The position numbers were made by a program, and so were the translations under genes. A DNA stretch of 53,393 nt. It comes from a virus (lineage: Duplodnaviria > Caudoviricetes). Shown in pieces: positions 9,352 to 25,639 of the stretch (position 1 is the stretch's first letter; every line of letters begins with the position of its first letter). The DNA lies in IMG/VR virus record IMGVR_UViG_3300031997_000012, positions 1 to 53,393 of that record; one strand, given 5' to 3'. The notes beneath the pieces were generated by a model. The model was not told where the DNA came from and did no database searches. It saw only the letters and a program-made list of their open reading frames with translations.

Positions 9352-9376
9352 TTCATTCTCCTTTCATTTTTCATAG

Positions 9377-9622: not shown

Positions 9623-9626
9623 TTTT

Positions 9627-10105: not shown

Positions 10106-10116
10106 ATTCACTCCTT

Positions 10117-10698
10117 TCAAAATTTGTAACTTCCGTTTGATTTTCTAACTTTAAACATATATTTTACTGTCGGACTAGATGTATAACCCAGTTCCAGTTT
10201 TGCATCCAATTTTTTCATAACTAAACCCTCTATTTCTGGTAATTTCGTATATTCATCAAAAACTTTCTTAAAGTCAGATAAATAAAATTCTGTTGGTGTA
10301 ACACTTTCTTGTTTACTACCAAAAAGTTTTTCTAATTCTGCCCTCCTTTCTCTAAACTGAAGTGACTTTAAACTCACTCCATTAGATATAAACATGTCCC
10401 ACAATACTATATGATGTCTAATTCCTTTAACTTTATTGTGTCTAAGCTCTCCATTAACTACACAATAACCAGCCCAACTCATGTTTTGAAGGTCACTTAA
10501 AACTTCTTTCGAAGGTTCATAGTTAAACTTTAATCCATAACGATTCCAAAATTCAAATCTACCATCCTCAAATCTATGAAGAACTAAATTGTTTCCATTA
10601 TATTTCAACTCAGCAATAACATTTAGATCATCGTTCAGTTGACTAAATAAAGGCTGATCAATTGAAATAAGGGTTGGTTTTGGTGGGTAGAATATCAT
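10117..10698 (-). CDS. ATP-dependent ligase-like adenylation domain protein (no OB fold)
   Basis: ELKYNG, WNR, VNGEL, LWDMF, ERR, IEGLVMKK, MFKVR; only 193 aa. Confidence 0.8.
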   Translation of the reverse strand: MIFYPPKPTLISIDQPLFSQLNDDLNVIAELKYNGNNLVLHRFEDGRFEFWNRYGLKFNYEPSKEVLSDLQNMSWAGYCVVNGELRHNKVKGIRHHIVLWDMFISNGVSLKSLQFRERRAELEKLFGSKQESVTPTEFYLSDFKKVFDEYTKLPEIEGLVMKKLDAKLELGYTSSPTVKYMFKVRKSNGSYKF

Positions 10699-10710
10699 AA
10701 TTTTATCCTC

Positions 10711-10800
10711 CTAAGTTTTCGGTATTTTCAACCTTAAATTTCGTTTAAATCTACCTGATACCTCAATCTCCTTCTTAGAATCAAACTTTCTACTTTTCAC
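10711..10800 (-). CDS. 29-aa microprotein carrying the GRFKRNLR motif
   Basis: Not in track. GTG at 10800 with AAGGAG upstream; MKSRKFDSKKEIEVSGRFKRNLRLKIPKT; fills the gap between the AAA+ and ligase-like genes; octapeptide identical to the 12771-13751 C-terminus with synonymous-only changes. Confidence 0.7.
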   Translation of the reverse strand: MKSRKFDSKKEIEVSGRFKRNLRLKIPKT

Positions 10801-12412: not shown

Positions 12413-12413
12413 A

Positions 12414-12740
12414 TCAATCTCCTTTCTTAATTAAGATCGGTCTTAACATCCTTCCAAAACGAACTGCTGACGGTTCAATAACTGTCCATGACTTTACTTC
12501 CTCGCGAATCCGTGTTTCCACTTCGATGAGCTGCTTCAGGAACTTCTCTTTTCCCTCAACAGGTCGCCGTTCTGGATCACATACATTACATTTATATACG
12601 TATTTAATCCACCTCCCTCTTCTTTCATAAGTACGAGATCTTTTGTCTCCCTTTCGCATAACAGAACCGCACTGTTCACACTTCGTTTTTCTTTTACAGA
12701 TTTCATAGTCTTTTGCTTTAGGTGATCTCATGAATAACAT
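12414..12740 (-). CDS. Basic Zn-finger hypothetical protein with C-terminal VRFGRMLR motif
   Basis: CEQC...CNVC; AAGGAG RBS. Confidence 0.7.
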   Translation of the reverse strand: MLFMRSPKAKDYEICKRKTKCEQCGSVMRKGDKRSRTYERRGRWIKYVYKCNVCDPERRPVEGKEKFLKQLIEVETRIREEVKSWTVIEPSAVRFGRMLRPILIKKGD

Positions 12741-12770
12741 ATTTTTCTCCTTTCAAAAAGCTTAAAGTGT

Positions 12771-13751
12771 TCAGTTCTGAGTTACTCTTAAATTTCGCTT
12801 AAACCTTCCCAGAACTTTATCCATATCCACTGACATAACTGATTCCTCAAGACTCTTTATTTCTAAGTTTAAAGCATCTTTAAACGATTCATTAGACAAG
12901 TCACTCTTACTAACACTATCCAACTTTTCTTCAAGCTGACTTATATGTTGAATTATCTCAGTATCCACAAAATCCATTGACTTAAAAGACTCAGCAAACT
13001 TTTTAAATGAATTTATGGTTTTCATACTAAGACAATCTTTTTCTGTTCTTTCTTTCATGTTCTTAACTGACTTTAAAACCATGTACTTTAATCGAGAAAC
13101 AACTTCTTCTAAAAATAAATCTAACTTCTGACTTACTTTCTCCCGATAAAGATTCTCCATTTCTGCTTTGCCTAAAGCAGCATCAGTCCCAAGTTTAGAA
13201 AATTCAGGAGACGTTACTTCAAATAAATCTAATTCAAACTTAAACTTTTTCCCCAAATCTTCCTTTAGCGGAAACTTATCCCTTAATTTAGAAAGAACAA
13301 TCTCCTTCTTACGCTGTAATATCTCCCCAGAATACTTCTTGGAAAGAATTTCTTCAAACATACCTTCATACTCATCAAGCATTTGACTTCTATCCTGTTC
13401 ATAACCCTCAAGAAATTTTCTTACCTCAAAATAAAAATCCTCCTCAAAAAGTCTTATTTTCTCCACAGTATCCTGTAAACGAGCATAAGGAACAAACCTT
13501 GCTGACCCAAATGGAAACGAAAACGAATTTTGAATTAAAACATTACACGCTTTTTGACGAATTGACCAAATCGACTCCAATCTTTCCTTCTTTGATAGAC
13601 GTTTATGACCTAAAGAAATCTTATCTTTAGGAATGTTTTCTAACCCCAAATCTTCAGCTTTCAACTGAGTTGCGGCACCCCAGATTGAAAAGGATAAATC
13701 AGCTACAACACCAGCCTTATACAAATCAAAATTCATAGATTCATTTTTCAT
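12771..13751 (-). CDS. DUF3150-like coiled-coil protein
   Basis: DLSFSIWGA..L.AEDLGL...SLGHKRL...FPFG.ARFVP pattern and position next to a Ycf46-like ATPase; ends GRFKRNLRVTQN. Confidence 0.65.
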   Translation of the reverse strand: MKNESMNFDLYKAGVVADLSFSIWGAATQLKAEDLGLENIPKDKISLGHKRLSKKERLESIWSIRQKACNVLIQNSFSFPFGSARFVPYARLQDTVEKIRLFEEDFYFEVRKFLEGYEQDRSQMLDEYEGMFEEILSKKYSGEILQRKKEIVLSKLRDKFPLKEDLGKKFKFELDLFEVTSPEFSKLGTDAALGKAEMENLYREKVSQKLDLFLEEVVSRLKYMVLKSVKNMKERTEKDCLSMKTINSFKKFAESFKSMDFVDTEIIQHISQLEEKLDSVSKSDLSNESFKDALNLEIKSLEESVMSVDMDKVLGRFKRNLRVTQN

Positions 13752-13769
13752 ATCATTCTCCTTTTTAGG

Positions 13770-13871
13770 TTATCTACCTTGTCTAAGCAGAGTTTTATAT
13801 CTTCGTTCACCTTTTACCATGTGTCTTCCACAAGTTTTACATTTCGTTAATCGTTGACAAGTTTCCCACAT
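13770..13871 (-). pseudogene. Truncated paralog (33 aa) of the 12414-12740 Zn-finger gene
   Basis: MWETCQRLTKCKTCGRHMVKGERRYKTLLRQGR aligns with YEICKRKTKCEQCGSVMRKGDKRSRTYERRGR but stops before the second CxxC. Confidence 0.55.
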
Positions 13872-14034
13872 GAGATCCCCCTTCCAAAACTTCTAATTCA
13901 TCACCACGAAAAAGAAGTCTTTTTCTAGAGTCGAGTTCAACCATCCAGTGAAATGGATAAACAGAACCATGGATTGCCACAATTTTTCCAAGCCTTCCAT
14001 TCCAAGAAATTTTAACCTCATCTCCTAATTTCAT
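13837..14034 (-). CDS. Small KOW/SH3-like hypothetical protein
   Basis: MKLGDEVKI...GRLGKIVAI...WMVELD...FRGDELEV; GGAG RBS at ATG 14034. Confidence 0.6.
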   Translation of the reverse strand: MKLGDEVKISWNGRLGKIVAIHGSVYPFHWMVELDSRKRLLFRGDELEVLEGGSHVGNLSTINEM

Positions 14035-14075
14035 ATTTTCTCCTTCCTTTATTAGAACAAAAAATTGATCAAGAA

Positions 14076-14219
14076 TTATCCACACCAGGGATTTGAAATT
14101 GAACATAATATGTGGTCACAAGTTTTTTCTTCACATAGATTACAAAATAATTCTTTTATTTCAGGAGTCCACCAATCTGTTGAAACTTCATTTCCATAAA
14201 TTTCTAATTGAATTTCCAT
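14076..14219 (-). CDS. Cys-rich microprotein (47 aa)
   Basis: Not in track. AGGAG RBS; MEIQLEIYGNEV...FCNLCEEKTCDHILCSISNPWCG. Confidence 0.55.
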   Translation of the reverse strand: MEIQLEIYGNEVSTDWWTPEIKELFCNLCEEKTCDHILCSISNPWCG

Positions 14220-14227
14220 ACTTTCTC

Positions 14228-14410
14228 CTATCCGTAAATTTTTACTCCCTCTACTTTACGATAATCATCTTTAAAAATTCTTGACTTTGCTTTACCCAAA
14301 ATATCATCTAACCAAATCAAATCTTTAACACACTTCTGACCTACAAAACCTATAGCTTCAACTTTTACTGTTCCATCAGACATAATTTCTATTGTTACTT
14401 TTTCTCTCAT
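14228..14410 (-). CDS. DUF2997-like protein
   Basis: IEIMSDGTVKVEAIGFVGQKC...LG; typical partner of DUF1257 and Ycf46-like ATPases. Confidence 0.8.
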   Translation of the reverse strand: MREKVTIEIMSDGTVKVEAIGFVGQKCVKDLIWLDDILGKAKSRIFKDDYRKVEGVKIYG

Positions 14411-14454
14411 GTAAACCTCCTTCTGCAGATGATATTTTATTATGTTTCTTTTTA

Positions 14455-14628
14455 TTAAATCTTTGAAAATCGACTCAAAGGATTGTTATCTTCTAAAATT
14501 TTTCTAATTTGTTCCAATTCACTAACTATTTTGTTAATTCGAAATACCCACTGAATAATTCCCATGGCTATTCCAAATATTCCTAAAAAAATAATCGATA
14601 ATGCAATTAGTTGGCCTTCATTACTCAT
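14455..14628 (-). CDS. Small membrane protein (57 aa)
   Basis: Not in track. AAGGAG RBS; MSNEGQLIALSIIFLGIFGIAMGIIQWVFRINKIVSELEQIRKILE... Confidence 0.6.
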   Translation of the reverse strand: MSNEGQLIALSIIFLGIFGIAMGIIQWVFRINKIVSELEQIRKILEDNNPLSRFSKI

Positions 14629-14661
14629 AGTCTTTCTCCTTTCGATTTTTATTTTTTTTTG

Positions 14662-14820
14662 TTATTCAGTGACCGCTTCAATTAAATCAGAACATGCCGG
14701 ACATAACGGTCTAAATGGATCATCATCATCACTCATTCCAAATGGAAAATATGTTGCTAGTATTTTAGGAAACCAACGTTCGCATTGATAACACACGAGC
14801 TTTTGTATTATTTTTTTCAT
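14662..14820 (-). CDS. Zn-finger microprotein
   Basis: CYQC...CPAC; AGGAGG RBS at ATG 14820. Confidence 0.6.
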   Translation of the reverse strand: MKKIIQKLVCYQCERWFPKILATYFPFGMSDDDDPFRPLCPACSDLIEAVTE

Positions 14821-14830
14821 CTTATCCTCC

Positions 14831-15019
14831 TTAGTTTTCAAAAATGTTTCGTGAATATTTAACCCTATTAAATCTCTCGTACCCGTCGTCATGATTCATA
14901 ATTACATCCGCCAAAATCTCATCTTTTTTTACTACTACGTTCACCACCTTGATCCCACTACATCCAGTTTGTAACTTTTCATGTTTAATAATGCTTTCTT
15001 TTATTCTCGCCTTGTCCAT
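14831..15019 (-). CDS. Hypothetical protein
   Basis: Track ORF with GAGG RBS, in operon context. Confidence 0.6.
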   Translation of the reverse strand: MDKARIKESIIKHEKLQTGCSGIKVVNVVVKKDEILADVIMNHDDGYERFNRVKYSRNIFEN

Positions 15020-15035
15020 AGTTCCTCATCTCCTT

Positions 15036-15416
15036 TCATCTACTTAGTGTTACTAATGTAGTTCCCTTCTCTGTATCTTTTCTCGTAATAAAAAATCCAT
15101 ACCCTTTTGCCTTCTTTGCAATTTTATGAAAAGTAGCACCCTGTTTCAGTTTACAACAATCTTTTCCCAACTTTCTTTCAACATGACCTCCATAAGAATC
15201 ATAAACTAAATCATAGTTTCCTGTAATCTTATTTTTAAGTAAACCTACGTCGTAAGGCGTTCCTTCCCAAGAAATTACATAATCAGCCTTAGAAGGCGTG
15301 GAATAGTAATGCCTAACAGAACCCCCTTCTATTATCGTTAACCCTAACTCCCTGCAAAAATCCCGAATAGAATCAATATCGTTTAATTGTGAATTATAAG
15401 TTGTTAAATGACTCAT
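15036..15416 (-). CDS. DUF1257 (Ycf35-like) protein
   Basis: MSH.T....L.D...I...C.ELG...VR.Y...AD.VI...YDVGL...G.YDLVYD.Y...KLKQ. Confidence 0.8.
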   Translation of the reverse strand: MSHLTTYNSQLNDIDSIRDFCRELGLTIIEGGSVRHYYSTPSKADYVISWEGTPYDVGLLKNKITGNYDLVYDSYGGHVERKLGKDCCKLKQGATFHKIAKKAKGYGFFITRKDTEKGTTLVTLSR

Positions 15417-15436
15417 ATTTTCTCCTTTCCTTTAAA

Positions 15437-15748
15437 TTAAACTACCGCCCCTTGTGAAATCCATAACTCTAGTTCATCTTCAGTTACCTCATAAATTGGC
15501 ATTTTTCTAAGAAATTCTGCATACGAATGCAGTGCTGGGGCCAATACCAGCAATTCTTCTAAAAGAAAATCTGCGTGTTCGGATAAAGTACGAACTATAA
15601 AATCTACCGTACTGGTAAAGCCGATTCCACCCACTTTAGTAGAACCATCATCCATCTTTTCAAAACTAATTTTTTCAGATGTTTTTAAAAGTTGACACAA
15701 ACCTTCACCACCAATTCTTATTGCAAGCTCAGATTTAAGTTTCATCAC
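15437..15748 (-). CDS. Hypothetical protein
   Basis: Track ORF with AAGGAGG RBS. Confidence 0.65.
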   Translation of the reverse strand: MMKLKSELAIRIGGEGLCQLLKTSEKISFEKMDDGSTKVGGIGFTSTVDFIVRTLSEHADFLLEELLVLAPALHSYAEFLRKMPIYEVTEDELELWISQGAVV

Positions 15749-15768
15749 TACTTCTTTTCCTCCTTTCG

Positions 15769-15912
15769 TATAGCAGTGATTCTGGTTATTCTGTATTTAC
15801 TGCTATTCCAAGTATTTTCTCTTTCATAAAACTTCTGAAAATTTGAATAGCCTGAATATCCAGAATCACTGCTGTATCCTGAATATCCAGAATCACTGCT
15901 GTATCCTGAATA
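15769..15912. repeat. 27-bp tandem repeat (2.3 copies) plus an inverted copy
   Basis: CCTGAATATCCAGAATCACTGCTGTAT at 15851-15877 and 15878-15904, partial to 15912; inverted 21/23 copy at 15769-15791. Confidence 0.9.
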
Positions 15913-15925
15913 ACCTGATTTAGAA

Positions 15926-16189
15926 CTAAAGCTGTCTTATTTCCCAATCGTTAGTAAAGTCTAAACAAGATTCTGCATTCTGAAATACTTTTCTTTTAAT
16001 TAATTTGATTTCAGAAAATCCTGCATTGTTTTTCCATGATTTATAACCATGATACTCCTGAGCAGCCAGTTTAAAAATACGCTCACTACTATCTTGAGTT
16101 AGCCAAGCATTCTGGGAACACCTCAAAGTTTGCCTGGAAAGATTTACCTTACAAAATCTACAATCATCGCAGGTTTTCATAATTTTCAT
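15926..16189 (-). CDS. Cys-rich hypothetical protein
   Basis: CDDCRFC...C...C; AAGGAG RBS. Confidence 0.65.
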   Translation of the reverse strand: MKIMKTCDDCRFCKVNLSRQTLRCSQNAWLTQDSSERIFKLAAQEYHGYKSWKNNAGFSEIKLIKRKVFQNAESCLDFTNDWEIRQL

Positions 16190-16201
16190 AAATCTCCTTT
16201 C

Positions 16202-16363
16202 TTATTTTTCTTCCTCAATTGCGGCCACCGTTTCGCATATTGGACATTCCGCTCTCCAATGTTCTTGCCAATAAGATTTAAACCAAACATTGCCACAATT
16301 ATAACAGTGAAAAACATACTGAATTTCTGTATGATAACTGTGTTTATTTTCCAGTTTATTCAT
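16202..16363 (-). CDS. Zn-ribbon microprotein (53 aa)
   Basis: Not in track. GGGGAG RBS; YVFHCYNCGNVW...ECPICET. Confidence 0.65.
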   Translation of the reverse strand: MNKLENKHSYHTEIQYVFHCYNCGNVWFKSYWQEHWRAECPICETVAAIEEEK

Positions 16364-16455
16364 ATTCTCCCCTCCACTGTATTTTCCCCCAAGCTGGGAA
16401 CATAATCACAAATGGAACATATCATCTAAACATAAAAATTTGGTTGCCAACTTTC

Positions 16456-16674
16456 CTATTTCAAGGCAAAGCAAGTAGAGAGAGGGCTGAGGTCCTCTAA
16501 CTCTGTTCGACAGTGAGAACAGAAATAAAGACTATCTTGATAACGCTCTGTCTCTACTAACTCATAACACTCTCCATCCCACCTTCTTGTTTCTGTTACT
16601 CTCTCCAGAACTTCTTCAATCTCATCTGGAAAGAGTTTACAGATTGGACAGTAAAACCACTTCTTTTCCTTCAT
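16456..16674 (-). CDS. Zn-ribbon hypothetical protein
   Basis: CPIC...CSHC; GGAGGTG RBS. Confidence 0.65.
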   Translation of the reverse strand: MKEKKWFYCPICKLFPDEIEEVLERVTETRRWDGECYELVETERYQDSLYFCSHCRTELEDLSPLSTCFALK

Positions 16675-16758
16675 CCTAACTCACCTCCCTTCAAAAATTT
16701 TTTTTCCATTTATCTCCCTATACCCGTTCTGTCGAGCTGTCAATGTTTTTTAAAAAAA

Positions 16759-17391
16759 TTACCCTCTCAGAGAGGCCCTTTTCTGTTTAACCAGCTCTCT
16801 AACTTTTTCAATTTCAGATTTTTTAAGACTAAAAATCTTTTGATCAAAGCCATCCACTGTTGAATAACCAGCAATAGCTGTAAAAAACTCTTTAAACTTT
16901 TTTACCGGGATAAACGTCATCAACTCTTTTTGAAGATCTGGATTTGACATCACTTCTTCATTTAAAGATACTGTCACTTTTTTCTGAATAAATTCCCCAA
17001 AAGAATCCCCAAAAATCTTTTGAAGATCTGGAATACTTTCTTCTTTGATTGCAGAAAAATAATCCGTAGATACATACGTTAAGCTTTCTTTAAATCCTGC
17101 CACTTTATAACTTTTCTGAAATTGACCTTTTAGAGCTTTTTCATCCTGAAAATTTTGAGTCCAGTCAACCACAACTATCTCACGAGACTCTTTTTCAGCC
17201 TTAGCTTCTTTTTCTATCTTTTTCCACTTTACAATTTCATCCACCAAAGTTTTTACCGGTTCAGATGGACTGATAGTAATTATTGATGATGCTTTCGCAT
17301 TTGATGGTGCTGAAGTGGTTACTCCAGTCACTGCCTCAAAAAATTCATTTTTACTCAAATTCTTTTTTACTTGTTCAGTTTTTACTTTCAT
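16759..17391 (-). CDS. Hypothetical phage protein
   Basis: 210-aa Lys-rich ORF with a coiled segment; AAGGAG RBS. Confidence 0.75.
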   Translation of the reverse strand: MKVKTEQVKKNLSKNEFFEAVTGVTTSAPSNAKASSIITISPSEPVKTLVDEIVKWKKIEKEAKAEKESREIVVVDWTQNFQDEKALKGQFQKSYKVAGFKESLTYVSTDYFSAIKEESIPDLQKIFGDSFGEFIQKKVTVSLNEEVMSNPDLQKELMTFIPVKKFKEFFTAIAGYSTVDGFDQKIFSLKKSEIEKVRELVKQKRASLRG

Positions 17392-17438
17392 AGTTTTCTC
17401 CTTTTATTTTTATTTGTAAAGTTTCTACCTATTAATCC

Positions 17439-17627
17439 TTAGCAACGTATTTTCCATTGAGAAATATTCTCTTTTATGCTCAATATTTTTTGAGCTAAAT
17501 CCTCCCTCTCCCCACTGGTTTTAACATCAAGAATATCCCATGCGTATTTTTCTAATTTAATCAATTCACCTTTCACTCTCTCCGCATAAAATTTCCTGGA
17601 AATTAATATTGTCTCATTCTCATTCAT
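17439..17627 (-). CDS. Hypothetical protein
   Basis: Track ORF; AAGGAG RBS. Confidence 0.6.
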   Translation of the reverse strand: MNENETILISRKFYAERVKGELIKLEKYAWDILDVKTSGEREDLAQKILSIKENISQWKIRC

Positions 17628-17788
17628 GCCATTGATCTCCTTTCTTCTTTTTTTACGGTTTCTTTTAAAAGCCAGAAAGATTCTTCCTCATTTAAACTTC
17701 CGTCTTCTTCATTCCATTCCATATTTTTGAAATCTTGTTTTTTGTCATTATAAATAAATTCTGTTTCTAAAAAAGTTAACTCTTCCAT
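17624..17788 (-). CDS. Acidic microprotein (54 aa)
   Basis: Not in track. MEELTFLETEFIYNDKKQDFKNMEWNEEDGSLNEEESFWLLKE...; stop overlaps the next ATG. Confidence 0.5.
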   Translation of the reverse strand: MEELTFLETEFIYNDKKQDFKNMEWNEEDGSLNEEESFWLLKETVKKEERRSMA

Positions 17789-17815
17789 TCATCGTGTCTC
17801 CTTTCTTTTTTATTC

Positions 17816-17837
17816 TGCCCCATAGGGGCATTTCTTT
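17816..17837 (+). terminator. GC hairpin with T-rich tail on the non-coding strand
   Basis: TGCCCC-ATA-GGGGCA followed by TTTCTTT on +; no U tract on the coding strand. Confidence 0.35.
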
Positions 17838-17861
17838 CTCTTGAGAGTCCTTTCTTTGTTG

Positions 17862-18128
17862 CATTTTATTCTCCTTTTTCTCCATAGTCTTCCCCGTACT
17901 TTTCTGTAAGAAAAAGTTTTTCAGCTTCCTTTACAGAAATCTTTTCTTTTTTAGATAATTCAACTATTCTAATCCATTCTGCGTTTATTCCTTCGTCTAC
18001 ACCTTCTTCGCTAAGAACATATCCATGATCTGCTGAATCTTGAAACATTTTATTCTCCTTTTTCTCCATAGTCTTCCCCGTACTTTTCTGTAAGAAAAAG
18101 TTTTTCAGCTTCCTTTACAGAAATCTTT
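17862..18128. repeat. Perfect 83-bp direct repeat pair (17862-17944 and 18046-18128)
   Basis: Identical CATTTTATTCTCC...ACAGAAATCTTT copies 184 bp apart; each holds an ORF tail, stop, AAGGAG RBS and ATG on the minus strand. Confidence 0.95.
17866..18048 (-). CDS. Hypothetical protein bounded by the 83-bp repeats
   Basis: ATG 18048 and its RBS come from one repeat copy; the C-terminus and stop come from the other. Confidence 0.6.
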   Translation of the reverse strand: MFQDSADHGYVLSEEGVDEGINAEWIRIVELSKKEKISVKEAEKLFLTEKYGEDYGEKGE

Positions 18129-18312
18129 ATCCATGATTTGCTGAAAAGTGGCACTGCTGAGGAGAAACTTTATGAACCTTTCCACAATACTCTACCAAGT
18201 TTTTTCCATTAGCTTTCCCTTGATACTTACCAATTACCATAGAACCGTGAATGCTTGCAGCAACCTTTACACCAATTTCTCTAGCCATCTTTTTCATAAC
18301 TTTCCTCATCAT
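18127..18312 (-). CDS. Basic hypothetical protein
   Basis: ATG at 18312 with AAGGAG RBS. Confidence 0.55.
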   Translation of the reverse strand: MMRKVMKKMAREIGVKVAASIHGSMVIGKYQGKANGKNLVEYCGKVHKVSPQQCHFSANHG

Positions 18313-18487
18313 ATATAATCTCCTTTTCAATCTTTTTCGGAATTAGTTTTAACCAGAACCGCCATCGTGGAGGCTTCCGTTTTGGTTCCAACCCCATTAG
18401 GTTGTTCGTCAACCTTACAAGGGTTTCGTTCATCGACGAAAAAGATGATCTCATCATCTTATTTTTAACCTATTTTTTTAAGGTTTA

Positions 18488-18607
18488 TCATGCAGCTCTT
18501 TTCAGCCCTGGCTGCTTTTGCCTGATCGTTTCCATCCCGGCAAGTAGCAATTCTCTGATGAGCCCCACATTTTTCATGTTCGGGTAATTCGGGCCAAGCT
18601 CAAACAC
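18488..18607 (-). CDS. Possible first ORF of the early operon (39 aa)
   Basis: Not in track. AAAGGAG then GTG; MFELGPNYPNMKNVGLIRELLLAGMETIRQKQPGLKRAA. Confidence 0.4.
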   Translation of the reverse strand: MFELGPNYPNMKNVGLIRELLLAGMETIRQKQPGLKRAA

Positions 18608-18703
18608 TCATCACTCCTTTCAAGTCATTCATTTAAAGTTTATATTGTGCCAGCGCTTTCTTACGTGAGGACTCGTTTTTGTATCTTTTTCTTTCTTTGG
18701 TTC

Positions 18704-19156
18704 TCCCCATCGAACCGTTAGGCATAAGGGCTTAGTTTATTTCGCCAAAGAAAAAATATTTTCAAAAAGTCTCTGTCCTCCAAAAGCTATCCCCATCGAA
18801 CCGTTAGGCATAAGGGTCACACTCTCAAATTTCTTCGAGCCGTGCTTAGCATTAGCATCTTTAATCCAATGACTTAACCTTGCTACTGGAGTTCGGTTAT
18901 TTAAAACCTGCGTTTTTTCTGAGTGCCGCTACCACCCATCCCTTATCATAAAGAATAACTTCATCTGAACTCTTTTTATCTTGGGATATCCATAGAACGT
19001 TTGGTTACTCAGTGATACTACCCTCTTAAAAAAAATGCCACTTCCCAATTTGTCCAGCAACCAAATTAAAATCCGTATCTTGCTTACCTTTCGGCATTAG
19101 GACTTTTATTTGGACTTATGCTAACCTCCCATTGAACTCTTCTGAGCATTAGGAGG
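18704..19156 (-). ncRNA. Structured leader RNA with a repeated stem/internal-loop motif
   Basis: Identical 27-mers CCCTTATGCCTAACGGTTCGATGGGGA (18704-18730, 18790-18816); covarying copy CCTCCTAATGCTCAGAAGAGTTCAATGGGAGG (19125-19156); variant GTCCTAATGCCGAAAGGT...GGAT (19071-19103); no long ORF. Confidence 0.55.
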
Positions 19157-19209
19157 AAGAAGCTTAAGGCTTTAAGGGAAAAGGGATTTTCTTCCTTTCA
19201 CCAACCGCC

Positions 19210-19228
19210 TATTCAATTATCAATGAAC
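19210..19228 (-). promoter_or_regulatory. boxA-like antitermination element
   Basis: GTTCATTGATAATTGAATA at the start of the predicted transcript resembles rRNA-operon boxA (GTTCTTTGAmAA...). Confidence 0.5.
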
Positions 19229-19235
19229 TAAATGA

Positions 19236-19264
19236 ATTATATAGTATAAGACATAGAATGTCAA
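19236..19264 (-). promoter_or_regulatory. Consensus sigma-70 early promoter
   Basis: TTGACA-17 nt-TATAAT, a perfect match, pointing into the accessory operon. Confidence 0.9.
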
Positions 19265-19312
19265 GCAAATTATTGCTAAAAACGTGTTTTTTACCTAAAA
19301 ATACATCAATAA

Positions 19313-19325
19313 AATCAAATAGTTA
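19313..19325 (+). promoter_or_regulatory. IHF consensus binding site
   Basis: AATCAAATAGTTA matches WATCAANNNNTTR, with an A/T-rich flank, about 50 bp upstream of the -35 box. Confidence 0.5.
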
Positions 19326-19432
19326 CAAAAATAATATAGAAATATAGACATTTCTATAATAAACTCGAAATTTTTAGGCTATTTTTTATTTTTTAGGCTG
19401 TTTTTCACAGATAAAAAAGGTTATGATTTTTG

Positions 19433-20368
19433 TTAAAACCTACAGCCTAACTCTTCCAAAAAATCAAATCTTTTTGAATTCAAAATGAACTTTTCTAAAT
19501 CAGGAGTAGAAAAACTGGCAGGATCATCATGAGGTAACTTAACAAGAGAAACAAAAAGTGTAGGAGATAAAAAAAGTAACTTTTTAGCAACCTTAACTGC
19601 CTTGTTTAAGGCATCTGCGTCTAACATTACATAAATCTTTTTAACACTGCCGAGCAATAATGAAGCCTGAATATCTGATAACGAAGTTCCCAATATGGCA
19701 ACTCCAGAGCAACCTACTTTTATAGCATCAAACACCCCCTCACAAATAACAGCAACTCCTTCTTTATGAGCGCCGTCTATATTAAAAACTACTTCTTCTT
19801 TTCCCACTAAAACCTCTGATCTAGTAGGATTTTTATACTTAGGAATCTCATTAAAAAAAGACCTTGCAATAAAATAAACTATTTTTGACCCGACAAAAAA
19901 AGGAACAATAATACGCCACTTATAAACTCCTAAACCACAATATCCAATTTTATAAGTTTTAATGTCTTCCAGTGATATACGAGAAAGCACATAATTTAAC
20001 GCTTTTTTACCCACCGCACTTAAACCATCATCTGCCAAATACATGTACTCTTTTGGAAATCCTAAAAGATTTTTTACTCCGCTGCGCTTAAATTCAGATT
20101 CTAAATCAAATTTTTTTAAATTATCTGCTGAAACATACTCATCCTCATTTGGACTCCAACCCAAAAAATCTTTTAAAAGACGTTTTAATGATCCTTTATA
20201 ATCGCACTTCCAGCAATGAAACACACCTAAATCTAAAGATACTTCTAAATTTCCAGTAGTATCATCACATTCTGGATTAAAACAATCTATCTTAAATTGA
20301 CCGCTTCTAACTGGATATTTTTCGCCAAAAATACTACAAAGAAGATCATAACGCTTAAAACTATCCAA
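19433..20368 (-). CDS. DNA primase (Zn-binding + TOPRIM)
   Basis: CFNPEC...HCWKC zinc site; RIIVPF...FIAR...PKYKNP; ICEGVFDA; MLDADA; DPA. Confidence 0.9.
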   Translation of the reverse strand: MDSFKRYDLLCSIFGEKYPVRSGQFKIDCFNPECDDTTGNLEVSLDLGVFHCWKCDYKGSLKRLLKDFLGWSPNEDEYVSADNLKKFDLESEFKRSGVKNLLGFPKEYMYLADDGLSAVGKKALNYVLSRISLEDIKTYKIGYCGLGVYKWRIIVPFFVGSKIVYFIARSFFNEIPKYKNPTRSEVLVGKEEVVFNIDGAHKEGVAVICEGVFDAIKVGCSGVAILGTSLSDIQASLLLGSVKKIYVMLDADALNKAVKVAKKLLFLSPTLFVSLVKLPHDDPASFSTPDLEKFILNSKRFDFLEELGCRF

Positions 20369-20400: not shown

Positions 20401-21708
20401 TCATAGGACTTGTTCTTCAATCAGCATAACATGATTATTAAACATTACTGGTATAACTTTTTTTGCCGCCCTGTTACGATTTTTACCTAAATAAAATCGC
20501 ATTTGAGGAATGTCCTCACGCTCCTCTCTTTCGGATTGACATAGTCCTAAAATAACATCTGCATCTGCCCAAATTCTTCCTGTAGCTTCAGCAATATCTT
20601 TACCAGTAACCACATCATTTTTTAAGGCACCCATTTTTGCCTGCACTGCAGACCACACAGGCTTATTTCTTCTAACAGCCAATGCCTTGCCCTCTCTATA
20701 ATTTCTTCCTATCCAAATATCTTCTCTAGCATTACTTCTTTTACAAAGATTAAGATAATCGATTACAATTAAATTCGGAATAAATCCATCTGAAAGCTCT
20801 TTATGAGTTAAAAAATCATCTATCTCTTTAACAGATGCACTCTCTGTAGGAAACATTTGAATAATTAACCTTGATTTAAACAGTTTAGAAAAATAGGTAA
20901 CATTATCGCATACCTGTGATGCTTTAGAAACAATCTCATCTTTAGTTAAGCGTGATAACCTCATATCAAACCTAATAGCTATATCATTTACACCACCCTC
21001 CAGAACAAAGTATATCACATTACTTTTTCCCAAAAGTGCGCCCACAGAAATGTTTACAAGTGTAGCAGTTTTACCACGACTAGGAGGCCCCACAACTAAC
21101 CCCAACTCTCCACCAGATAAACCGCCACCAAGATACCTGTTTAATTTTTTAAATCCAGTACTAACTACATTATCTGCCTTTTCATCCCTGGAATACACCC
21201 TAGATACCACATCAGAAAAATAATCATAACCCAAACTCATAGAAGATCCAAGAGAATCTACCTCGGATAAAGACATAGTAAGATTCTTTATATCTACAAC
21301 AGATCCTGATCCTATCTTTTTACCTATATCTAATAACAGTATTTTTAATTCCTGACGTTTAGCGTGGTTAACAATAACATCTGCAGTATAGGATTCAGGT
21401 GGTAGTTCACATAGAAACAGCAACTCTAGCAACTCGTCATAACTAGAACATCTTTCTTGATATACCTCTTCACTTTTTAACTTATCTAAAGTGCGTAAAA
21501 TTTCTGTTTTTAAAACATCCTTAGTAATTGAAATGCCGTAATTTTTGTAATACTCTGAAATTATAGAATAAATATCTCTATACATCTGATTTTCAAAATA
21601 TTGAAGTTTTACTACAGCATTATAATTAAAGTAAAAGCTTTTATCTCGAACAAGAAATGCTAGTAGTTTTAATTCAAACTCTTCATCAAATACGTAGGTT
21701 TCTACCAA
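20401..21708 (-). CDS. Replicative SF4 (DnaB/gp41-like) helicase
   Basis: VSTGFKKLN...GG; Walker A GPPSRGKT; FVLE; IVIDYL; PVWSAVQ; KNRN. Confidence 0.9.
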   Translation of the reverse strand: MVETYVFDEEFELKLLAFLVRDKSFYFNYNAVVKLQYFENQMYRDIYSIISEYYKNYGISITKDVLKTEILRTLDKLKSEEVYQERCSSYDELLELLFLCELPPESYTADVIVNHAKRQELKILLLDIGKKIGSGSVVDIKNLTMSLSEVDSLGSSMSLGYDYFSDVVSRVYSRDEKADNVVSTGFKKLNRYLGGGLSGGELGLVVGPPSRGKTATLVNISVGALLGKSNVIYFVLEGGVNDIAIRFDMRLSRLTKDEIVSKASQVCDNVTYFSKLFKSRLIIQMFPTESASVKEIDDFLTHKELSDGFIPNLIVIDYLNLCKRSNAREDIWIGRNYREGKALAVRRNKPVWSAVQAKMGALKNDVVTGKDIAEATGRIWADADVILGLCQSEREEREDIPQMRFYLGKNRNRAAKKVIPVMFNNHVMLIEEQVL

Positions 21709-22319: not shown

Positions 22320-23129
22320 TCAAACAGATGCCCTTTCTCGACTATTAAGTTTTAAATTCTCCAGCCATTCTGGATACCAATCTTCCTGTGTAATAGCTTC
22401 TACAGTACTTATTTTTTTAGGTAAATTCTTTTGAGTTAAATCCACTCTATCTAATTCACCATGAGACAAATCACCTAAAACCATTTCTGGAGTTACTTTT
22501 TTCATTCTCCTTTTATAAAACTTAGCTACCCTATCCAGTAATTCTTTTTCAGACCAACACTTTTTATCGGCCATCATTTTTATTGCATACACACAAAACC
22601 AATCTTTAGACTCAAAAGTAACAAAGTCTGTACTTATCTTTCTTTTTGCTAATTCACGTTCAAAATTCATAACTATTTTATTATCTACACTCTCAGAAGA
22701 AAAATCAATACTAACTAAATCAGCCAACCACGGTAGCGTATCATTAAGTCTACCTATAAATTCTTCTAATGCCACACTATCTTCACAAAATAATTCCTTC
22801 ATAGGATAATACTTTCTACCACTAGGTGTTAATATAAATTCAGACGCTAATCTATAAAACATAGTCACAGTCATACCTAAACCGCACCTAAAATCTTCCA
22901 ATGCAGTTGTTAATTGTATAAACACTTGTTTAGTCTTACCCTTAAGTAAAACTGGCAAAGCAATAACCCACTGTCTCTTTTTTCTACGTTTAAAACCTGA
23001 AAGCTGCTGTAAAAAAGAAGAAACAGCAGCGTCTACATCTTTAGATAAACCAAAATTTTTAGACTGTCTACCATAAATTAGCAACAAATTTTTAGAAATT
23101 CGTTTCAAACAGTAATAATCCTTTCCCAA
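22320..23129 (-). CDS. Hypothetical protein, possible replication initiator
   Basis: 269-aa ORF directly upstream of the DnaC-like loader; function inferred from position only. Confidence 0.55.
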   Translation of the reverse strand: MGKDYYCLKRISKNLLLIYGRQSKNFGLSKDVDAAVSSFLQQLSGFKRRKKRQWVIALPVLLKGKTKQVFIQLTTALEDFRCGLGMTVTMFYRLASEFILTPSGRKYYPMKELFCEDSVALEEFIGRLNDTLPWLADLVSIDFSSESVDNKIVMNFERELAKRKISTDFVTFESKDWFCVYAIKMMADKKCWSEKELLDRVAKFYKRRMKKVTPEMVLGDLSHGELDRVDLTQKNLPKKISTVEAITQEDWYPEWLENLKLNSRERASV

Positions 23130-25639
23130 GTTTCATCAACTTCAAAAATTTCCATTCCCATATTTAGATACTCTTTCACTCTATCTTCACTATGCTTATA
23201 AAGATATTTTTTATTATGAGCATCAACAAAATCTACAATAGTTACTACATTTTCGCCTGATTTTTTTCTTAATGCTCTTCCTACTCTCTGAATAGTTTTT
23301 AACGGTGCTTTAAAACCAACTCCCATAATTAATACATCCATAGCAGGAACATCCAACCCTTCGTCACTAATGGTTGAAGATATTAAACATCTTAATTTCT
23401 TTTTCTTAAACTTATCCAGAGCATCCTGGACATTATCTCTCCCACCACTTATAAACTCAACTTCTAATCCTATATCTTCTACCATTTTTAAAATTACTTC
23501 TCCATGAGCAATACGCCATACTAATATAAAAACAGACTTTCCTTGCTCCACAAATCTTTTAGCTGACATAACAATAAATCTATTTCTTTCTAGATTATTT
23601 AGTATTCCCTTTTCGTACGCCTGATCAAACGTATAATGTCCCGGAATTTTTGGTTCACTAACATAGTGTAAATATGCAGTAGGTGAAGCAGAAATTCCTG
23701 CATCAATCAACTCTCTATTAGTTACAGAAACAATCTCATCTCCTGTTAATCCTCTAACTATTAGATTAGAAATTTCATCCTTACGTAAAGCTGTAGCCGA
23801 CAATCCGTATCTATAATATGATGTATTACAGGCCTTTAAACAGGATTCAAAAGTTTTACTCGAAATATGGTGGCAATTAGATACTAATATATTATCTGCA
23901 AAAAAATTATGATTATCTTCAACTTCAAGATTATAAATATACTTTGGTATTCTATTATTTGCTCTTTCCTTTATTTTTGTAACTTTATATGTATGATTAA
24001 ACATAAAAGCAAAAATTTTTTCTTTAATATTTTCAATATCACTAAGTTCATCATCACCGATAAATAAACATTGATACCCATTCGTTCTATAAGCTTCAAT
24101 CAAACTTTCAATTTTTTCTTTTGAATACCAATATGAAGTATTCCCTATTTCTATAACTTTTTTTTGTCCTTCGACTATAAAATCTGGACATTTATGTCTT
24201 TGTTTAGGCCGAAAACTATAAGATCCTATTTTAAACTCAATCCAATATACTCCATCTCCAGTATATTTTAATTTTTCAATTTTTAAATTTTTTATAATAG
24301 CTTCTGGTCTAGTTGGAAATTTTCTTTTTCTATGTGCACTAATAAAATTCTTCTTTCGTTCTAGAAGTTTATCAGGATTATTTTCGTAAAACAATCTATT
24401 AGAATTTCTAGATTTTTCAACAGTTAATCGATCAAAAGATGGATTACTAATTTTCATTCTATCACTTAAATATTTTCTATATTTAGCATTTTTACTTCTC
24501 TTACAAAAAATACGTTTTTTAATTTTAGGATCTTGTATAGGATAACCATGCTCTTTTAACCATTTTCCCAGTAAAAAATAATTCTTATTAAAATTATGTT
24601 GAGAATGATGACCTCCCAAACTAGATCCTGTTAAAAATTCTTTTCCACAAAACTTACATAAAAAAATCTTTTTAGAATTAGATTCATTAAAAATTATTTC
24701 ATCACCAACACATAAGTCTTTAGTTTTAATATAACCTCGATTTTTAACATAAATTTTATGATTTCCAGTACATTTAAAAGAAACTTCTTTATTATTTTTA
24801 TTAAAAAAAATTTTATACCAAGGATTACTACCTAAAATTTTTATATATCTTACAATTTTCTTTTTTTCATATTTTTTAAGTTCTAAATTATAACTAATTA
24901 CATATTCAACTTTAAATAAATTATTAATTGAATTTTCAACAATATTACCAATTTCTACAGTTTTATCGATATCAACTAATACTTGACTATTATATGGCAA
25001 ACACTCATCCGATATTACAACTTTAGACCTACTAAGCATTTCTTTAATTTCTGAATCATTAAGATTTTTAGCTATTGACGGAACAGATAAAACATTAATA
25101 TCTTCTATTTCTTTTATACCGGCACCGATCATACCAATTTTAACACCTAAACGCTGTTCCATTCTAGCTTTAGTTTGCTTCATAAGTGTAATTCTATGAG
25201 TAAAAAAATTAGTAGGTAAACCTAGTACTTGTATAATACCACAAGCTACTTCTGTTTTTCCAGCATTTGGTGGAGCAGAAATTATTCCTCTTTTTGTAGA
25301 TACCGCTTCGTTAATCATTTTAATCTGATAATCTCTTAATTCAATTCCATTTAAAGAGAGTATATTATTTTTATGCTCAACTAAAACACGATCATCTATG
25401 ATTTCGTAAGGAAATTCAATTTTAGATGTTACATACCCAATTAATCCTGTATAAAATGTACTTGTTAATAAATTAAAAAATCTTCTATAACCATCCCACA
25501 ATCCTCGTCTAAAATGAGGACTATAGAAATAACCTGGGACACGAACAGATAGAATTTTGTGAATCTGTTCTAGCTCTTCTTTTGTAGCTAATTTTTTATC
25601 TACTCTAGTATAAAGATTGTCAATATGAAAATGTAACAA
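23105..25639 (-). CDS. uvsW: UvsW-like SF2 helicase containing an intein
   Basis: WDG..R N-terminus; LRDYQ; PPNAGKT; DE/CHH motif II split by the intein; GLSAT; DEGLDVP; IQRVGRALR. Extein is 468 aa. Confidence 0.9.
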   Translation of the reverse strand: MLHFHIDNLYTRVDKKLATKEELEQIHKILSVRVPGYFYSPHFRRGLWDGYRRFFNLLTSTFYTGLIGYVTSKIEFPYEIIDDRVLVEHKNNILSLNGIELRDYQIKMINEAVSTKRGIISAPPNAGKTEVACGIIQVLGLPTNFFTHRITLMKQTKARMEQRLGVKIGMIGAGIKEIEDINVLSVPSIAKNLNDSEIKEMLSRSKVVISDECLPYNSQVLVDIDKTVEIGNIVENSINNLFKVEYVISYNLELKKYEKKKIVRYIKILGSNPWYKIFFNKNNKEVSFKCTGNHKIYVKNRGYIKTKDLCVGDEIIFNESNSKKIFLCKFCGKEFLTGSSLGGHHSQHNFNKNYFLLGKWLKEHGYPIQDPKIKKRIFCKRSKNAKYRKYLSDRMKISNPSFDRLTVEKSRNSNRLFYENNPDKLLERKKNFISAHRKRKFPTRPEAIIKNLKIEKLKYTGDGVYWIEFKIGSYSFRPKQRHKCPDFIVEGQKKVIEIGNTSYWYSKEKIESLIEAYRTNGYQCLFIGDDELSDIENIKEKIFAFMFNHTYKVTKIKERANNRIPKYIYNLEVEDNHNFFADNILVSNCHHISSKTFESCLKACNTSYYRYGLSATALRKDEISNLIVRGLTGDEIVSVTNRELIDAGISASPTAYLHYVSEPKIPGHYTFDQAYEKGILNNLERNRFIVMSAKRFVEQGKSVFILVWRIAHGEVILKMVEDIGLEVEFISGGRDNVQDALDKFKKKKLRCLISSTISDEGLDVPAMDVLIMGVGFKAPLKTIQRVGRALRKKSGENVVTIVDFVDAHNKKYLYKHSEDRVKEYLNMGMEIFEVDETWERIITV
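23876..25003 (-). mobile_element. Intein (376 aa) with C2H2 finger and Vsr/DUF559-like endonuclease
   Basis: Starts CLPYNSQV; block B CTGNHKI; ends YNLEVEDNHNFFADNILVSN followed by Cys(+1). Internal CKFC...H..H and PTRPE...PDF...VIEI...GYQCLFI. Confidence 0.92.

What the first reader, a model, noticed from the sequence alone, without database searches (positions are those of the whole stretch)
18620..19264. Long early leader: boxA-like site followed by a repeated, covarying RNA motif
Seen: a perfect TTGACA-17-TATAAT promoter is followed by ~600 nt without a credible ORF. It begins with a boxA-like sequence and holds 3-4 copies of stem-UWAU-GC(hairpin)GU-UCRA-UGGG. Two copies are identical, a third keeps the internal loop while swapping the upper stem (GCUC-AGAA-GAGU vs GCC-UAAC-GGU), and a fourth has a GAAA tetraloop. 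A U8 tract lies at 19028-19035. I do not recognise the motif as a known riboswitch. Inference: a cis-acting processive antitermination RNA (nut/put-like) for the ~19-kb operon, or a protein-sponging ncRNA.
Basis: partly seen in the sequence, partly recalled or inferred. Interest (0 to 1): 0.75.

Follow-up and report, generated by a model that had tools for sequence, protein, structure and literature searches.

The report
Conserved long noncoding RNA in phage
Just after the primase gene, an uncultured sediment phage has about 0.9 kb with no protein-coding capacity behind a perfect promoter; it holds repeated small RNA hairpins with an invariant internal loop, matches no catalogued RNA family, and looks like a new phage noncoding RNA or leader of unknown function.

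Summary
The window's only perfect TTGACA-17-TATAAT (19264-19236) precedes about 917 nt with no conserved ORF, ending at the ATG at 18312.

Three strict copies of a ~30-nt hairpin module occur against 0 expected by chance. Their stems carry compensatory changes around an invariant internal loop. A fourth, looser copy has a GAAA loop.

One metagenomic relative (L085, primase 52% identical) has the same unit in the same place:
- promoter and boxA-like block;
- one strict module and one GAAA variant;
- an exact shared 16-mer;
- a hairpin followed by U5;
- a strongly conserved two-hairpin element.

The downstream genes of the two phages are unrelated.

A ~93% strain variant has fewer substitutions here (6.1%) than in flanking genes (7.5-12.6%), plus single-base indels. 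Two contigs of a sediment metatranscriptome lie on the region.

Nothing matched in Rfam, GenBank phages or IMG/VR.

My reading is a functional structured RNA of a new family. Its mechanism is open: stand-alone RNA, antitermination leader, or both. Antitermination is plausible but unproven, and the "19-kb operon" is not supported.

Comparative support is thin: two full sequences.

The parts
19236..19264 (-). Sigma-70-type promoter TTGACA-17-TATAAT; the transcript is predicted to start near 19229/19228
   Evidence: the only 12/12 site in the window. L085 has TTGATT-16-TATAAT at the homologous place.
19217..19228 (-). boxA-like block GUUCAUUGAUAA at the 5' end of the transcript; 19228-19219 also forms the 5' strand of a possible long-range closing helix
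   Evidence: Conserved block in L085 (GUUCUUUUAAAA). Matches 8 of 10 (window) and 9 of 10 (L085) specified positions of GYTCTTTAANA. Not above chance by sequence alone. Pairing with 18437-18428.
19125..19156 (-). Module 1: lower stem CCUCC/GGAGG, internal loop UAAU / UCAAUG, mini-hairpin GCUC-AGAA-GAGU
   Evidence: 45.3 bits; -13.1 kcal/mol, z -3.5. Its positional homolog is L085 1178-1209.
19070..19104 (-). Module 2, looser variant: AGUCC-UAAU-GCC-GAAA-GGU, an 11-nt 3' strand, then GGAUU
   Evidence: Read; fold (z -0.2). Not found by R1. The analogous GAAA variant in L085 (1633-1662) scores 11.6 bits.
19028..19035 (-). U8 tract
   Evidence: Read. L085 keeps only CAUUUUU here. The scan found no terminator-like site at this tract.
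18789..18818 (-). Module 3: CCC-UUAU-GCC-UAAC-GGU-UCGAUG-GGG
   Evidence: (39.9 bits).
18703..18732 (-). Module 4, identical to module 3 over 27 nt with unrelated flanks
   Evidence: 40.3 bits. The variant in runs X17 and X18 turns its UCGAUG into UCAAUG (18711).
18634..18649 (-). 16-nt block CACAAUAUAAACUUUA, identical in L085 and unique in the window
   Evidence: No conserved pairing partner was found.
18488..18620 (-). Noncoding stretch overlapped by a spurious 39-aa ORF. It shares short nucleotide blocks with L085, but the reading frame is not conserved.
   Evidence: A 1-nt insertion at 18515 in the X17 variant.
18439..18460 (-). AU-rich hairpin AAGAUGAU-GAG-AUCAUCUU followed by U5; a weak terminator-like site or a structural hairpin
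   Evidence: -6.2 kcal/mol, z -1.9. L085 has a different hairpin plus U5 at the same place (1962-1998, z -2.6). The scan does not call it, because it has too few G-C pairs.
18428..18437 (-). GUCGAUGAAC: 3' strand of the possible closing helix with 19228-19219
   Evidence: For the 9-mer scored, 9 of 9 pairs in the window, the only perfect partner among 948 positions. 8 of 9 at the homologous site in L085. None of 419 other common offsets exceeds 6.
18335..18433 (-). Element 2: conserved block AUGAACGAAACCC, hairpin P1 (18425-18390) and hairpin P2 (18389-18355). The P2 loop holds a 19-mer identical in L085 (18378-18360) that includes CCUCC.
   Evidence: 73% identity to L085. One search counts 2 both-side changes in the inner P1 stem. 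I read 2 more in P2 from the sequences. Local z about -3. Only a weak Rfam DUF2815 hit, 16.3 bits against a gathering score of 41.2.
18307..18325 (-). AAGGAG ribosome-binding site (18325-18320) and ATG-ATG start (18312/18309) of the first small gene
   Evidence: Read. The protein has no similarity to the first gene after the L085 unit.

Best explanation
The region is a conserved, transcribed, structured noncoding RNA of a family not yet catalogued.

An early host-type promoter just downstream of the primase gene drives about 0.8 kb of RNA. This body carries three to four copies of a ~30-nt hairpin module. The invariant asymmetric internal loop of the module is the recognised part: either a site for a protein or a tertiary-contact motif.

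The extreme 5' block may do two things. It is boxA-like, so it could make RNA polymerase resistant to Rho across the long untranslated stretch. It can also pair with a conserved block ~790 nt downstream, closing the RNA as rRNA leader and spacer sequences close a precursor. The rRNA comparison is recalled textbook knowledge.

Transcription then passes a weak hairpin-U5 and a second, strongly conserved two-hairpin element into a variable cluster of small early genes.

Shown here: the promoter match, the lack of coding capacity, the repeats, compensatory changes in the local stems, conservation in one relative, low substitution in a strain variant, and presence in an RNA library.

Inferred: the transcript ends, the long-range helix, any Nus or Rho involvement, and what binds the modules.
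For: Transcription signal and lack of coding:
- The only 12/12 promoter in the window.
- No ORF under three codes and no conserved peptide.

Modules:
- 3 strict matches against 0.00 expected.
- An exact 27-mer repeated with unrelated flanks.
- 3 of 8 pairs with changes on both sides, 93% of cells paired, against 18-63% in slid controls.

Conservation in L085:
- It keeps the promoter, 5' block, module 1, a GAAA-variant module, the 16-mer, a hairpin plus U5, and element 2.
- Its downstream genes are unrelated to the window's.
- Element 2 has 4 both-side changes and no broken pair in the two hairpins: 2 counted, 2 read.
- Stems kept at matching positions exceed a block-shuffle null: 38 against 21.9 +/- 5.5, with 0 of 60 shuffles as high.

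5'-3' helix: 9 of 9 pairs in the window and 8 of 9 in L085 at the homologous site. None of 419 other common offsets scores above 6.

Strain variant in run X17:
- 67 substitutions in 1101 nt (6.1%) with 22 gaps over 18329-19429.
- 7.5-9.6% substitutions and 0 gaps in the flanking genes of 210 aa or more; 12.6% and 10 gaps in the first small gene.

RNA library: metatranscriptome run X18 has 2 contigs on the laid 5 kb, both inside the unit (18471-18804 and 19029-19202).

No other promoter of 10/12 or better lies on this strand between 19236 and 16759.
Against: - Only two full sequences exist, so covariation has no statistical depth. RNAalifold on two rows overfits.
- Outside the conserved patches, the RNA body is 52% identical to L085 against 47% for shuffled controls.
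- Local folding energies of the body are ordinary: z from -1.9 to +0.6 for the window, -2.9 to +0.4 for L085. Only the 3' 250 nt reach about -3. The 621-nt stretch has z -1.66.
- With +/-15 nt tolerance, 6 other offsets match the 5'-3' helix score, and one pair of the helix is broken in L085.
- The X18 contigs give no strand, ends or level. The run was found with this very stretch, and DNA carry-over cannot be excluded.
- L084, a third relative, shows no boxA-like block in the 24 nt visible after its promoter before the contig ends.
- L086 (primase 47% identical) has no such unit after its primase gene.
Confidence: 0.4

Rival explanations
1. A purely cis-acting leader for processive antitermination. 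The boxA-like block, perhaps with the hairpin modules, would load host Nus factors or a phage factor on RNA polymerase. The polymerase would then ignore Rho and the hairpin-U5 and reach the small early genes. The RNA would have no role of its own.
For: - The boxA-like block lies at the 5' end of both full leaders.
- A hairpin plus U5 is kept in position before the genes in both.
- No other good promoter precedes the downstream genes.
- Element 2 carries CCUCC, complementary to the GGAG of the ribosome-binding site 18325-18320 read, just before the first gene.
Against: - By recalled knowledge, known nut, put and rrn signals span tens of nucleotides, not 0.8 kb with four repeated modules.
- The boxA-like sequence is not rarer than chance in this AT-rich genome.
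- The genes supposedly served differ completely between the two phages while the RNA is kept.
- A terminator-like site at 16775-16763 limits the unit to about 2.5 kb, not 19 kb.
- No match to any Rfam cis-regulatory family.
Confidence: 0.2
2. A transcription-activated replication origin. It lies next to the helicase, loader and primase genes. The promoter and AT-rich stretch would open the DNA, and the repeated 27-mers would act as iterons for an initiator protein.
For: - It lies directly downstream of the replication module.
- An 18-27% GC stretch sits at 19200-19500.
- There are direct repeats in one orientation.
Against: - The copies differ by compensatory changes that preserve hairpins, which is expected for RNA and not for double-stranded binding sites.
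- No DnaA-box enrichment: 21 matches against 18.8 expected, none in the region.
- No tandem iteron array.
- No change of GC skew.
- Contigs of an RNA library lie on it.
Confidence: 0.08
3. A cluster of sibling small RNAs. The long primary transcript would be cut into several sRNAs, each carrying one module as a conserved seed or protein handle.
For: - Identical 27-mers with unrelated flanks resemble sibling sRNAs.
- The two RNA-library contigs are separate pieces rather than one long contig.
Against: - The scans found no promoter or terminator between the modules.
- The conserved nucleotides lie in an internal loop and stems, not in an exposed single-stranded seed.
- Contig breaks are uninformative.
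Confidence: 0.07
4. Mostly unconstrained spacer or decayed genes, with only a few short functional sites: the promoter, a terminator and the leader of the next gene.
For: - Global identity to L085 is barely above shuffled.
- Local folding z-scores are ordinary.
Against: - The strain variant diverges less here than in coding flanks.
- An exact 27-mer is kept twice with unrelated flanks.
- There are compensatory stem changes.
- Several exact blocks of 11-19 nt survive at 52% primase identity.
Confidence: 0.05

Closest known systems
boxA-dependent Nus antitermination signals (rrn leaders, lambda nut, suhB-type leaders)
   Same: A boxA-like block lies right behind a strong promoter at the head of a long untranslated transcript. 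It matches 8 of 10 (window) and 9 of 10 (L085) specified positions of GYTCTTTAANA (passages of PMC5725501). A possible leader-trailer helix recalls rRNA precursors; that comparison is recalled.
   Different: The consensus comes from gamma-proteobacteria, and the host here is unknown. The match is no better than chance in this genome. No boxB- or boxC-like partner and no N-like protein were identified. The block may be conserved for pairing instead.
Large ornate phage-associated RNAs GOLLD and ROOL
   Same: A several-hundred-nucleotide noncoding RNA carried by a phage. It has many small hairpins and GNRA-type loops, and its function is unknown. Abstract of 10.1101/2024.12.08.627333, seen in the listing.
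   Different: No covariance-model match even at E <= 10. No adjacent tRNA genes. Weak thermodynamic signal. It is followed directly by genes that depend on its promoter.
lnc001 / lnc002 of Staphylococcus phage K (Herelleviridae)
   Same: Long intergenic noncoding RNAs, tabulated at 635 and 1154 nt, in a large myovirus. [quoted passage not shown] The primase here is about 30% identical to those of SPO1-like Herelleviridae.
   Different: No sequence similarity. No module match in the phage K loci; the best score is 8.6 bits. The phage K RNAs lie next to tRNA genes.
11-nt GAAA tetraloop receptor (CCUAAG_UAUGG)
   Same: The 5' strand CCUAAU occurs in 4 of 6 modules (5 of 6 letters). The 3' strand AAUGG or GAUGG occurs in 3 of 6 (4 of 5 letters). 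GAAA-capped copies exist in both RNAs. The receptor sequence was read in passages of 10.1101/2024.03.11.584472.
   Different: Two extra nucleotides (UC) lie on the 3' strand. The closing G-U is replaced. The platform A is lost in modules 3 and 4 (CCUUAU). The 3' strand also looks like a T-loop (recalled).
Rfam DUF2815 RNA (RF03084)
   Same: A phage 5' leader motif. It gives a weak hit on element 2 plus the ribosome-binding site (18310-18416).
   Different: 16.3 bits against a gathering score of 41.2, E 7.3. No hit in L085 at E <= 1. The downstream gene matched no Pfam family at E <= 0.1, so it showed no DUF2815 match.

Membership tests
Any Rfam 15 family (including GOLLD, ROOL, OLE, raiA, group I/II introns, 6S, tmRNA, RNase P, riboswitches) | Covariance-model score at or above the family's gathering threshold | tested here: not met
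   0 matches in the whole window at gathering scores. At E <= 10 in 18300-19500 there were only 6 chance-level hits, the best being 17.1 bits. L085 gave none at E <= 1.
boxA / Nus-factor antitermination signal | Match to the boxA consensus GYTCTTTAANA in the nascent RNA near the promoter | tested here: inconclusive
   Window 8 of 10 and L085 9 of 10 specified positions. Sites of this quality are as common as chance in the window. The consensus is for gamma-proteobacteria and the host is unknown.
boxA / Nus-factor antitermination signal | NusB/NusE binding and terminator read-through that depends on the element | not testable with these tools
   Needs binding assays and reporter fusions.
lambda-type nut site | A boxB hairpin next to boxA, with a cognate N-type protein | not tested
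   The first module lies about 75 nt after the boxA-like block. I did not compare loop sequences with boxB and did not look for an N-like protein.
11-nt tetraloop receptor | Internal loop CCUAAG / UAUGG flanked directly by helices | tested here: not met
   Best copy: CCUAAU ... UC-AAUGG, which has two substitutions and a 2-nt insertion. Modules 3 and 4 have CCUUAU. It is a resemblance only.
Intrinsic (Rho-independent) terminator at 18460-18439 | G+C-rich stem followed by a U-tract | tested here: inconclusive
   An 8-bp stem with only 2 G-C pairs plus U5, -6.2 kcal/mol. The consensus scan does not call it. A hairpin plus U5 is kept in position in L085.
CRISPR-like array or iterons | Regularly spaced repeats with uniform spacers, or clustered duplex binding sites | tested here: not met
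   Only two exact copies, 86 nt apart. The other copies are 240-340 nt away with changed stems. No tandem array.
Protein-coding gene or genes | An open frame conserved between relatives | tested here: not met
   Single-base indels in the strain variant.

The most novel reading that the evidence does not exclude
A new class of large (~0.8 kb) phage-encoded architectural RNA. It would be closed by a 5'-3' helix and built from repeated modules, each pairing a receptor-like or T-loop-like internal loop with a GNRA-like tetraloop. The modules would dock on each other within or between molecules, giving self-assembly as recently seen for ROOL and GOLLD, or they would together scaffold or sequester a host RNA-binding factor early in infection.
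Probability: 0.2. Interest if true: 0.8.

Novelty: new variant of a known kind. Interest (0 to 1): 0.52.

Why it matters
Long noncoding RNAs of phages (GOLLD, ROOL, the phage K lncRNAs) are abundant, and none has a known function. This one is compact and easy to dissect: one consensus promoter, a short repeated module whose invariant loop can be mutated, and a clear downstream read-out. If the modules prove to be a protein-binding or self-docking motif, they would add a new RNA building block and a handle on what large phage RNAs do. If the 5' block works as boxA, it would show a phage protecting a long untranslated RNA the way cells protect rRNA. The family seems confined to a small clade of uncultured sediment phages, so general impact depends on finding more members.

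Tried and rejected
Searches for more homologs:
- blastn of the region against GenBank phages found no match.
- IMG/VR exact-pattern scans:
  - the 22-mer of the module: 0;
  - the 19-mer of element 2: 0;
  - the module-1 20-mer: 0;
  - the 16-mer: 82 stretches, of which the 80 fetched loci show none of the other blocks;
  - a two-block pattern: 5 GC-rich chance hits.
- The genome contigs two-block pattern gave 3 hits, all in one Xanthobacter coding region.
- Primase-guided fetching:
  - 0 relatives with the single protein and 0 with P0005;
  - the 80 best IMG/VR loci are all <= 38% identical;
  - the 80 best metagenome loci include only 3 at 47-53%.
- Model R1 found nothing in 80 IMG/VR loci. 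It gave 4 hits at E 0.66-0.89 in 77 metagenome loci, and nothing in the phage K lncRNA loci.
- Approximate matching of four conserved blocks over 2.1 Mb of fetched loci found only L085, apart from chance hits to the 16-mer and the 11-nt module block.

Tools that gave nothing:
- Earlier findings, relatives of a virus record, and the records behind L086-L088 were not available.

Analyses that led nowhere:
- No conserved pairing partner for the 16-mer. It is not a repeated promoter-like motif.
- Duplex predictions for a 5'-end/16-mer helix are clear in L085 but weak in the window.
- A structure-aware model of element 2 was dropped because MAFFT shifts the stem strands by 1-2 columns.

Other readings considered and dropped:
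- tRNA remnants: ARAGORN finds none, and by my own reading of the module sequences the nucleotides flanking UUCGAUG are not complementary.
- CRISPR-like array and replication origin: see the rival explanations and the membership tests.

Literature not fully checked:
- A 2023 catalogue of ~10,000 candidate viral structured RNAs (PMC10690425, passages) kept only motifs of 29-151 nt with at least 3 IMG/VR regions. Its supplementary lists could not be seen, so overlap of a sub-motif cannot be excluded.
Full report
**Context.**
The window is an IMG/VR virus record of 53,393 bp that CheckV estimates to be 32% complete. Every ORF of 90 codons or more that I annotated lies on the minus strand, GC is about 33%, and the GC skew is monotonic.
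- It encodes a contractile tail sheath and baseplate proteins.
- It encodes a replication module: an intein-bearing helicase, a DnaC-like loader, a DnaB-like helicase and a primase.
- It also encodes an NAD-dependent ligase and an AAA ATPase.
- The primase is about 30% identical to those of SPO1-like Herelleviridae.
- Near-identical DNA occurs in 22 listed runs of sediment or freshwater-sediment metagenomes.

So this is a large uncultured myovirus. The finding lies on the minus strand, directly downstream of the primase gene (19433-20368).

**Observation.**
- TTGACA-17-TATAAT at 19264-19236 is the only perfect match in the window. It is also the only site scoring above 10/12 on either strand in the 19.5 kb from base 1 to 19500.
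- From the predicted start (~19229) there is no credible ORF. Table 11 gives 43- and 30-codon ORFs. Code 4 and TAG=Q give nothing substantial.
- None of 44 stop-to-stop pieces has a conserved peptide in the relative L085.
- The motif ATGC-N(4-14)-GTTCRATGGG occurs three times, all on the sense strand, against 0.00 expected. Two copies share an exact 27-mer although their flanks are unrelated.
- Each strict copy folds alone as lower stem, asymmetric internal loop (UWAU / UCRAUG), and a 3-4 bp mini-hairpin with a tetraloop.
- On the four strict copies (three here, one in L085), 93% of cells are paired, and three of eight pairs change on both sides. The slid controls pair 18-63%.
- A fourth, looser copy (19104-19070) has a GAAA loop and a longer 3' strand. 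The covariance model built from the strict copies does not recover it.
- The U8 tract is at 19035-19028.

**The unit is longer than reported.**
The only full homolog I could obtain is L085, a 3.6-kb metagenome contig whose primase is 52% identical. It carries, in the same order after the primase gene:
- a TTGATT-16-TATAAT promoter;
- a 5' block GUUCUUUUAAAA, against GUUCAUUGAUAA in the window;
- a strict module at the homologous position, with a changed lower stem (GCCC/GGGC against CCUCC/GGAGG);
- a GAAA-capped variant module whose upper stem covaries with the window's variant (GCU/AGU against GCC/GGU);
- the exact 16-mer CACAAUAUAAACUUUA;
- a stretch that shares short nucleotide blocks with the window's spurious 39-codon ORF, in a different frame;
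- a hairpin followed by U5;
- a ~100-nt element that is 73% identical, including exact blocks of 13 and 19 nt.

Two hairpins of this second element carry four changes on both sides and no disruption. The inner P1 stem is GGUUG/CAACC against AGAUG/CAUCU. The P2 stem is GGAACC/GGUUCU against GGGAUC/GAUCCU, which I read from the sequences.

The conserved P2 loop contains CCUCC. This is complementary to the GGAG of the ribosome-binding site at 18325-18320, which precedes the ATG at 18312.

The genes that follow are unrelated in the two phages. The conserved entity is therefore the noncoding unit (19229 to about 18335), not a gene-specific leader.

**Constraint and expression.**
Run X17 holds a strain about 93% identical. 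Its contig has 67 substitutions in 1101 nt (6.1%) and 22 gap positions over 18329-19429. Its other pieces compare as follows:

| Piece | Substitutions | Gaps |
|---|---|---|
| 19451-19925 | 8.8% | 0 |
| 19481-19925 | 7.9% | 0 |
| 19896-20335 | 8.0% | 0 |
| 20479-21500 | 7.5% | 0 |
| 16726-17353 | 9.6% | 0 |
| 18145-18343, first small gene | 12.6% | 10 |

Most differences in genes this close are expected to be synonymous, which is my inference. A neutral noncoding stretch should therefore diverge several-fold more than the genes, not less. The single-base indels fit noncoding sequence.

The listed variants are compatible with the model. 18711 turns UCGAUG of module 4 into UCAAUG, the form of module 1. 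19156 turns a C-G of module 1 into U-G. However, 278 differences were not shown.

The one RNA library among the holders (X18, a freshwater-sediment metatranscriptome) has two contigs on the 5 kb laid. Both lie inside the unit (18471-18804 and 19029-19202). This is weak: contigs give no strand or ends, the run was selected with this stretch, and DNA carry-over is possible.

**Structure beyond the local hairpins is uncertain.**
- Local folding energies of the body are ordinary. Only the 3' 250 nt reach z of about -3, and the 621-nt stretch has z -1.66.
- Global identity of the body to L085 is 52% against 47% for shuffles.
- Stems kept at matching positions exceed a block-shuffle null (38 against 21.9 +/- 5.5, 0 of 60 shuffles), but that count includes stems inside conserved blocks.
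- One long-range helix stands out. The first nucleotides (19228-19219) pair with 18437-18428. For the 9-mer scored, all 9 positions pair in the window, and this is the only perfect partner among 948 positions.
- The homologous sites pair at 8 of 9 positions in L085, with one change on both sides and one broken pair. None of 419 other common offsets exceeds 6. With +/-15 nt tolerance, 6 other offsets reach 8.

This helix would close an ~800-nt domain. It also offers a second reason why the 5' block is conserved.

**What it is not.**
- No Rfam family matches: 0 at gathering scores, and only chance-level hits at E <= 10.
- No tRNA or tmRNA gene.
- No similarity to GenBank phages.
- No module in the phage K lncRNA loci.
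- No iteron array, DnaA-box cluster or skew change that would mark an origin.
L084 ends 24 nt after its promoter. L086 lacks the unit.

**Mechanism.**
I commit, at about 0.4, to a functional structured noncoding RNA whose repeated internal-loop modules are recognition sites. It is made early from a host-type promoter, and read-through from it supplies the small genes downstream. No other promoter of 10/12 or better lies on that strand before 16759.

- The boxA-like start fits the need to shield 0.9 kb of untranslated RNA from Rho; that rationale rests on established knowledge of rrn and nut systems. The evidence is only positional conservation in two leaders, and 8-9 of 10 matches to a consensus from another phylum.
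- The pure antitermination-leader reading (0.2) is not excluded. It explains neither the size, nor the repeated modules, nor the turnover of the served genes.
- The "19-kb operon" is unlikely, because a terminator-like site lies at 16775-16763.
- The internal loop resembles the 11-nt GAAA receptor, whose sequence I read. From recall, it also resembles a T-loop. Neither is met strictly, and neither can be tested without 3D data.

**Novelty and limits.**
Searches of the paper library did not surface this element:
- ornate/GOLLD/ROOL/phage;
- boxA/antitermination;
- receptor motif;
- structured RNA/bacteriophage/metagenome.

A catalogue of viral structured-RNA candidates keeps only motifs of 29-151 nt seen in at least three IMG/VR regions (passages).

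The case rests on two full sequences plus strain variants, so it is a good candidate rather than a demonstrated RNA class.

Noticed in passing
window 3384-6128 (-): A 914-aa hybrid sensor kinase with PAS domains (up to four matched stretches per PAS-type model), an HATPase_c domain and a receiver domain. It has the same strand and composition as the phage genes. A phage-borne hybrid histidine kinase is unusual.
   Followed up: no
window 23105-25639 (-): The ResIII/Helicase_C helicase is interrupted by an intein splicing domain with a C2H2-type zinc finger.
   Followed up: no
window 10790-15416 (-): A cluster of DUF1257, DUF3150 and an AAA ATPase. The ATPase hits phrog_8638 at E 1.6e-137 and is 31% identical to AAA-ATPases of mycobacteriophages and Pseudomonas phages.
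   Followed up: partly
window 19265-19432 (-): An AT-rich (18-27% GC) spacer between the primase gene and the promoter. It has two copies of TTTTTAGGCTATTTTT and an AU-rich hairpin plus U-run (AUAGAAAU...AUUUCUAU) that could end the replication operon.
   Followed up: no
L254 633-769 (-), Staphylococcus phage K 13632-13768: The 3' part of the published phage K lncRNA region scores 43.4 bits against Rfam DUF3800-I RNA, just under its gathering score of 44.2.
   Followed up: no
window 16759-18312 (-): About eight small ORFs (45-210 aa) follow the RNA. Most match no family, and they are not shared with L085. This looks like a fast-turnover early 'accessory' cluster ending at the terminator-like site 16775-16763.
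   Followed up: partly
L084 1640-1682: A third relative (primase 53% identical) has a TTGATC-16-TATAAT promoter at the same place. Its first 24 transcribed nucleotides form a different hairpin and show no boxA-like block before the contig ends.
   Followed up: partly
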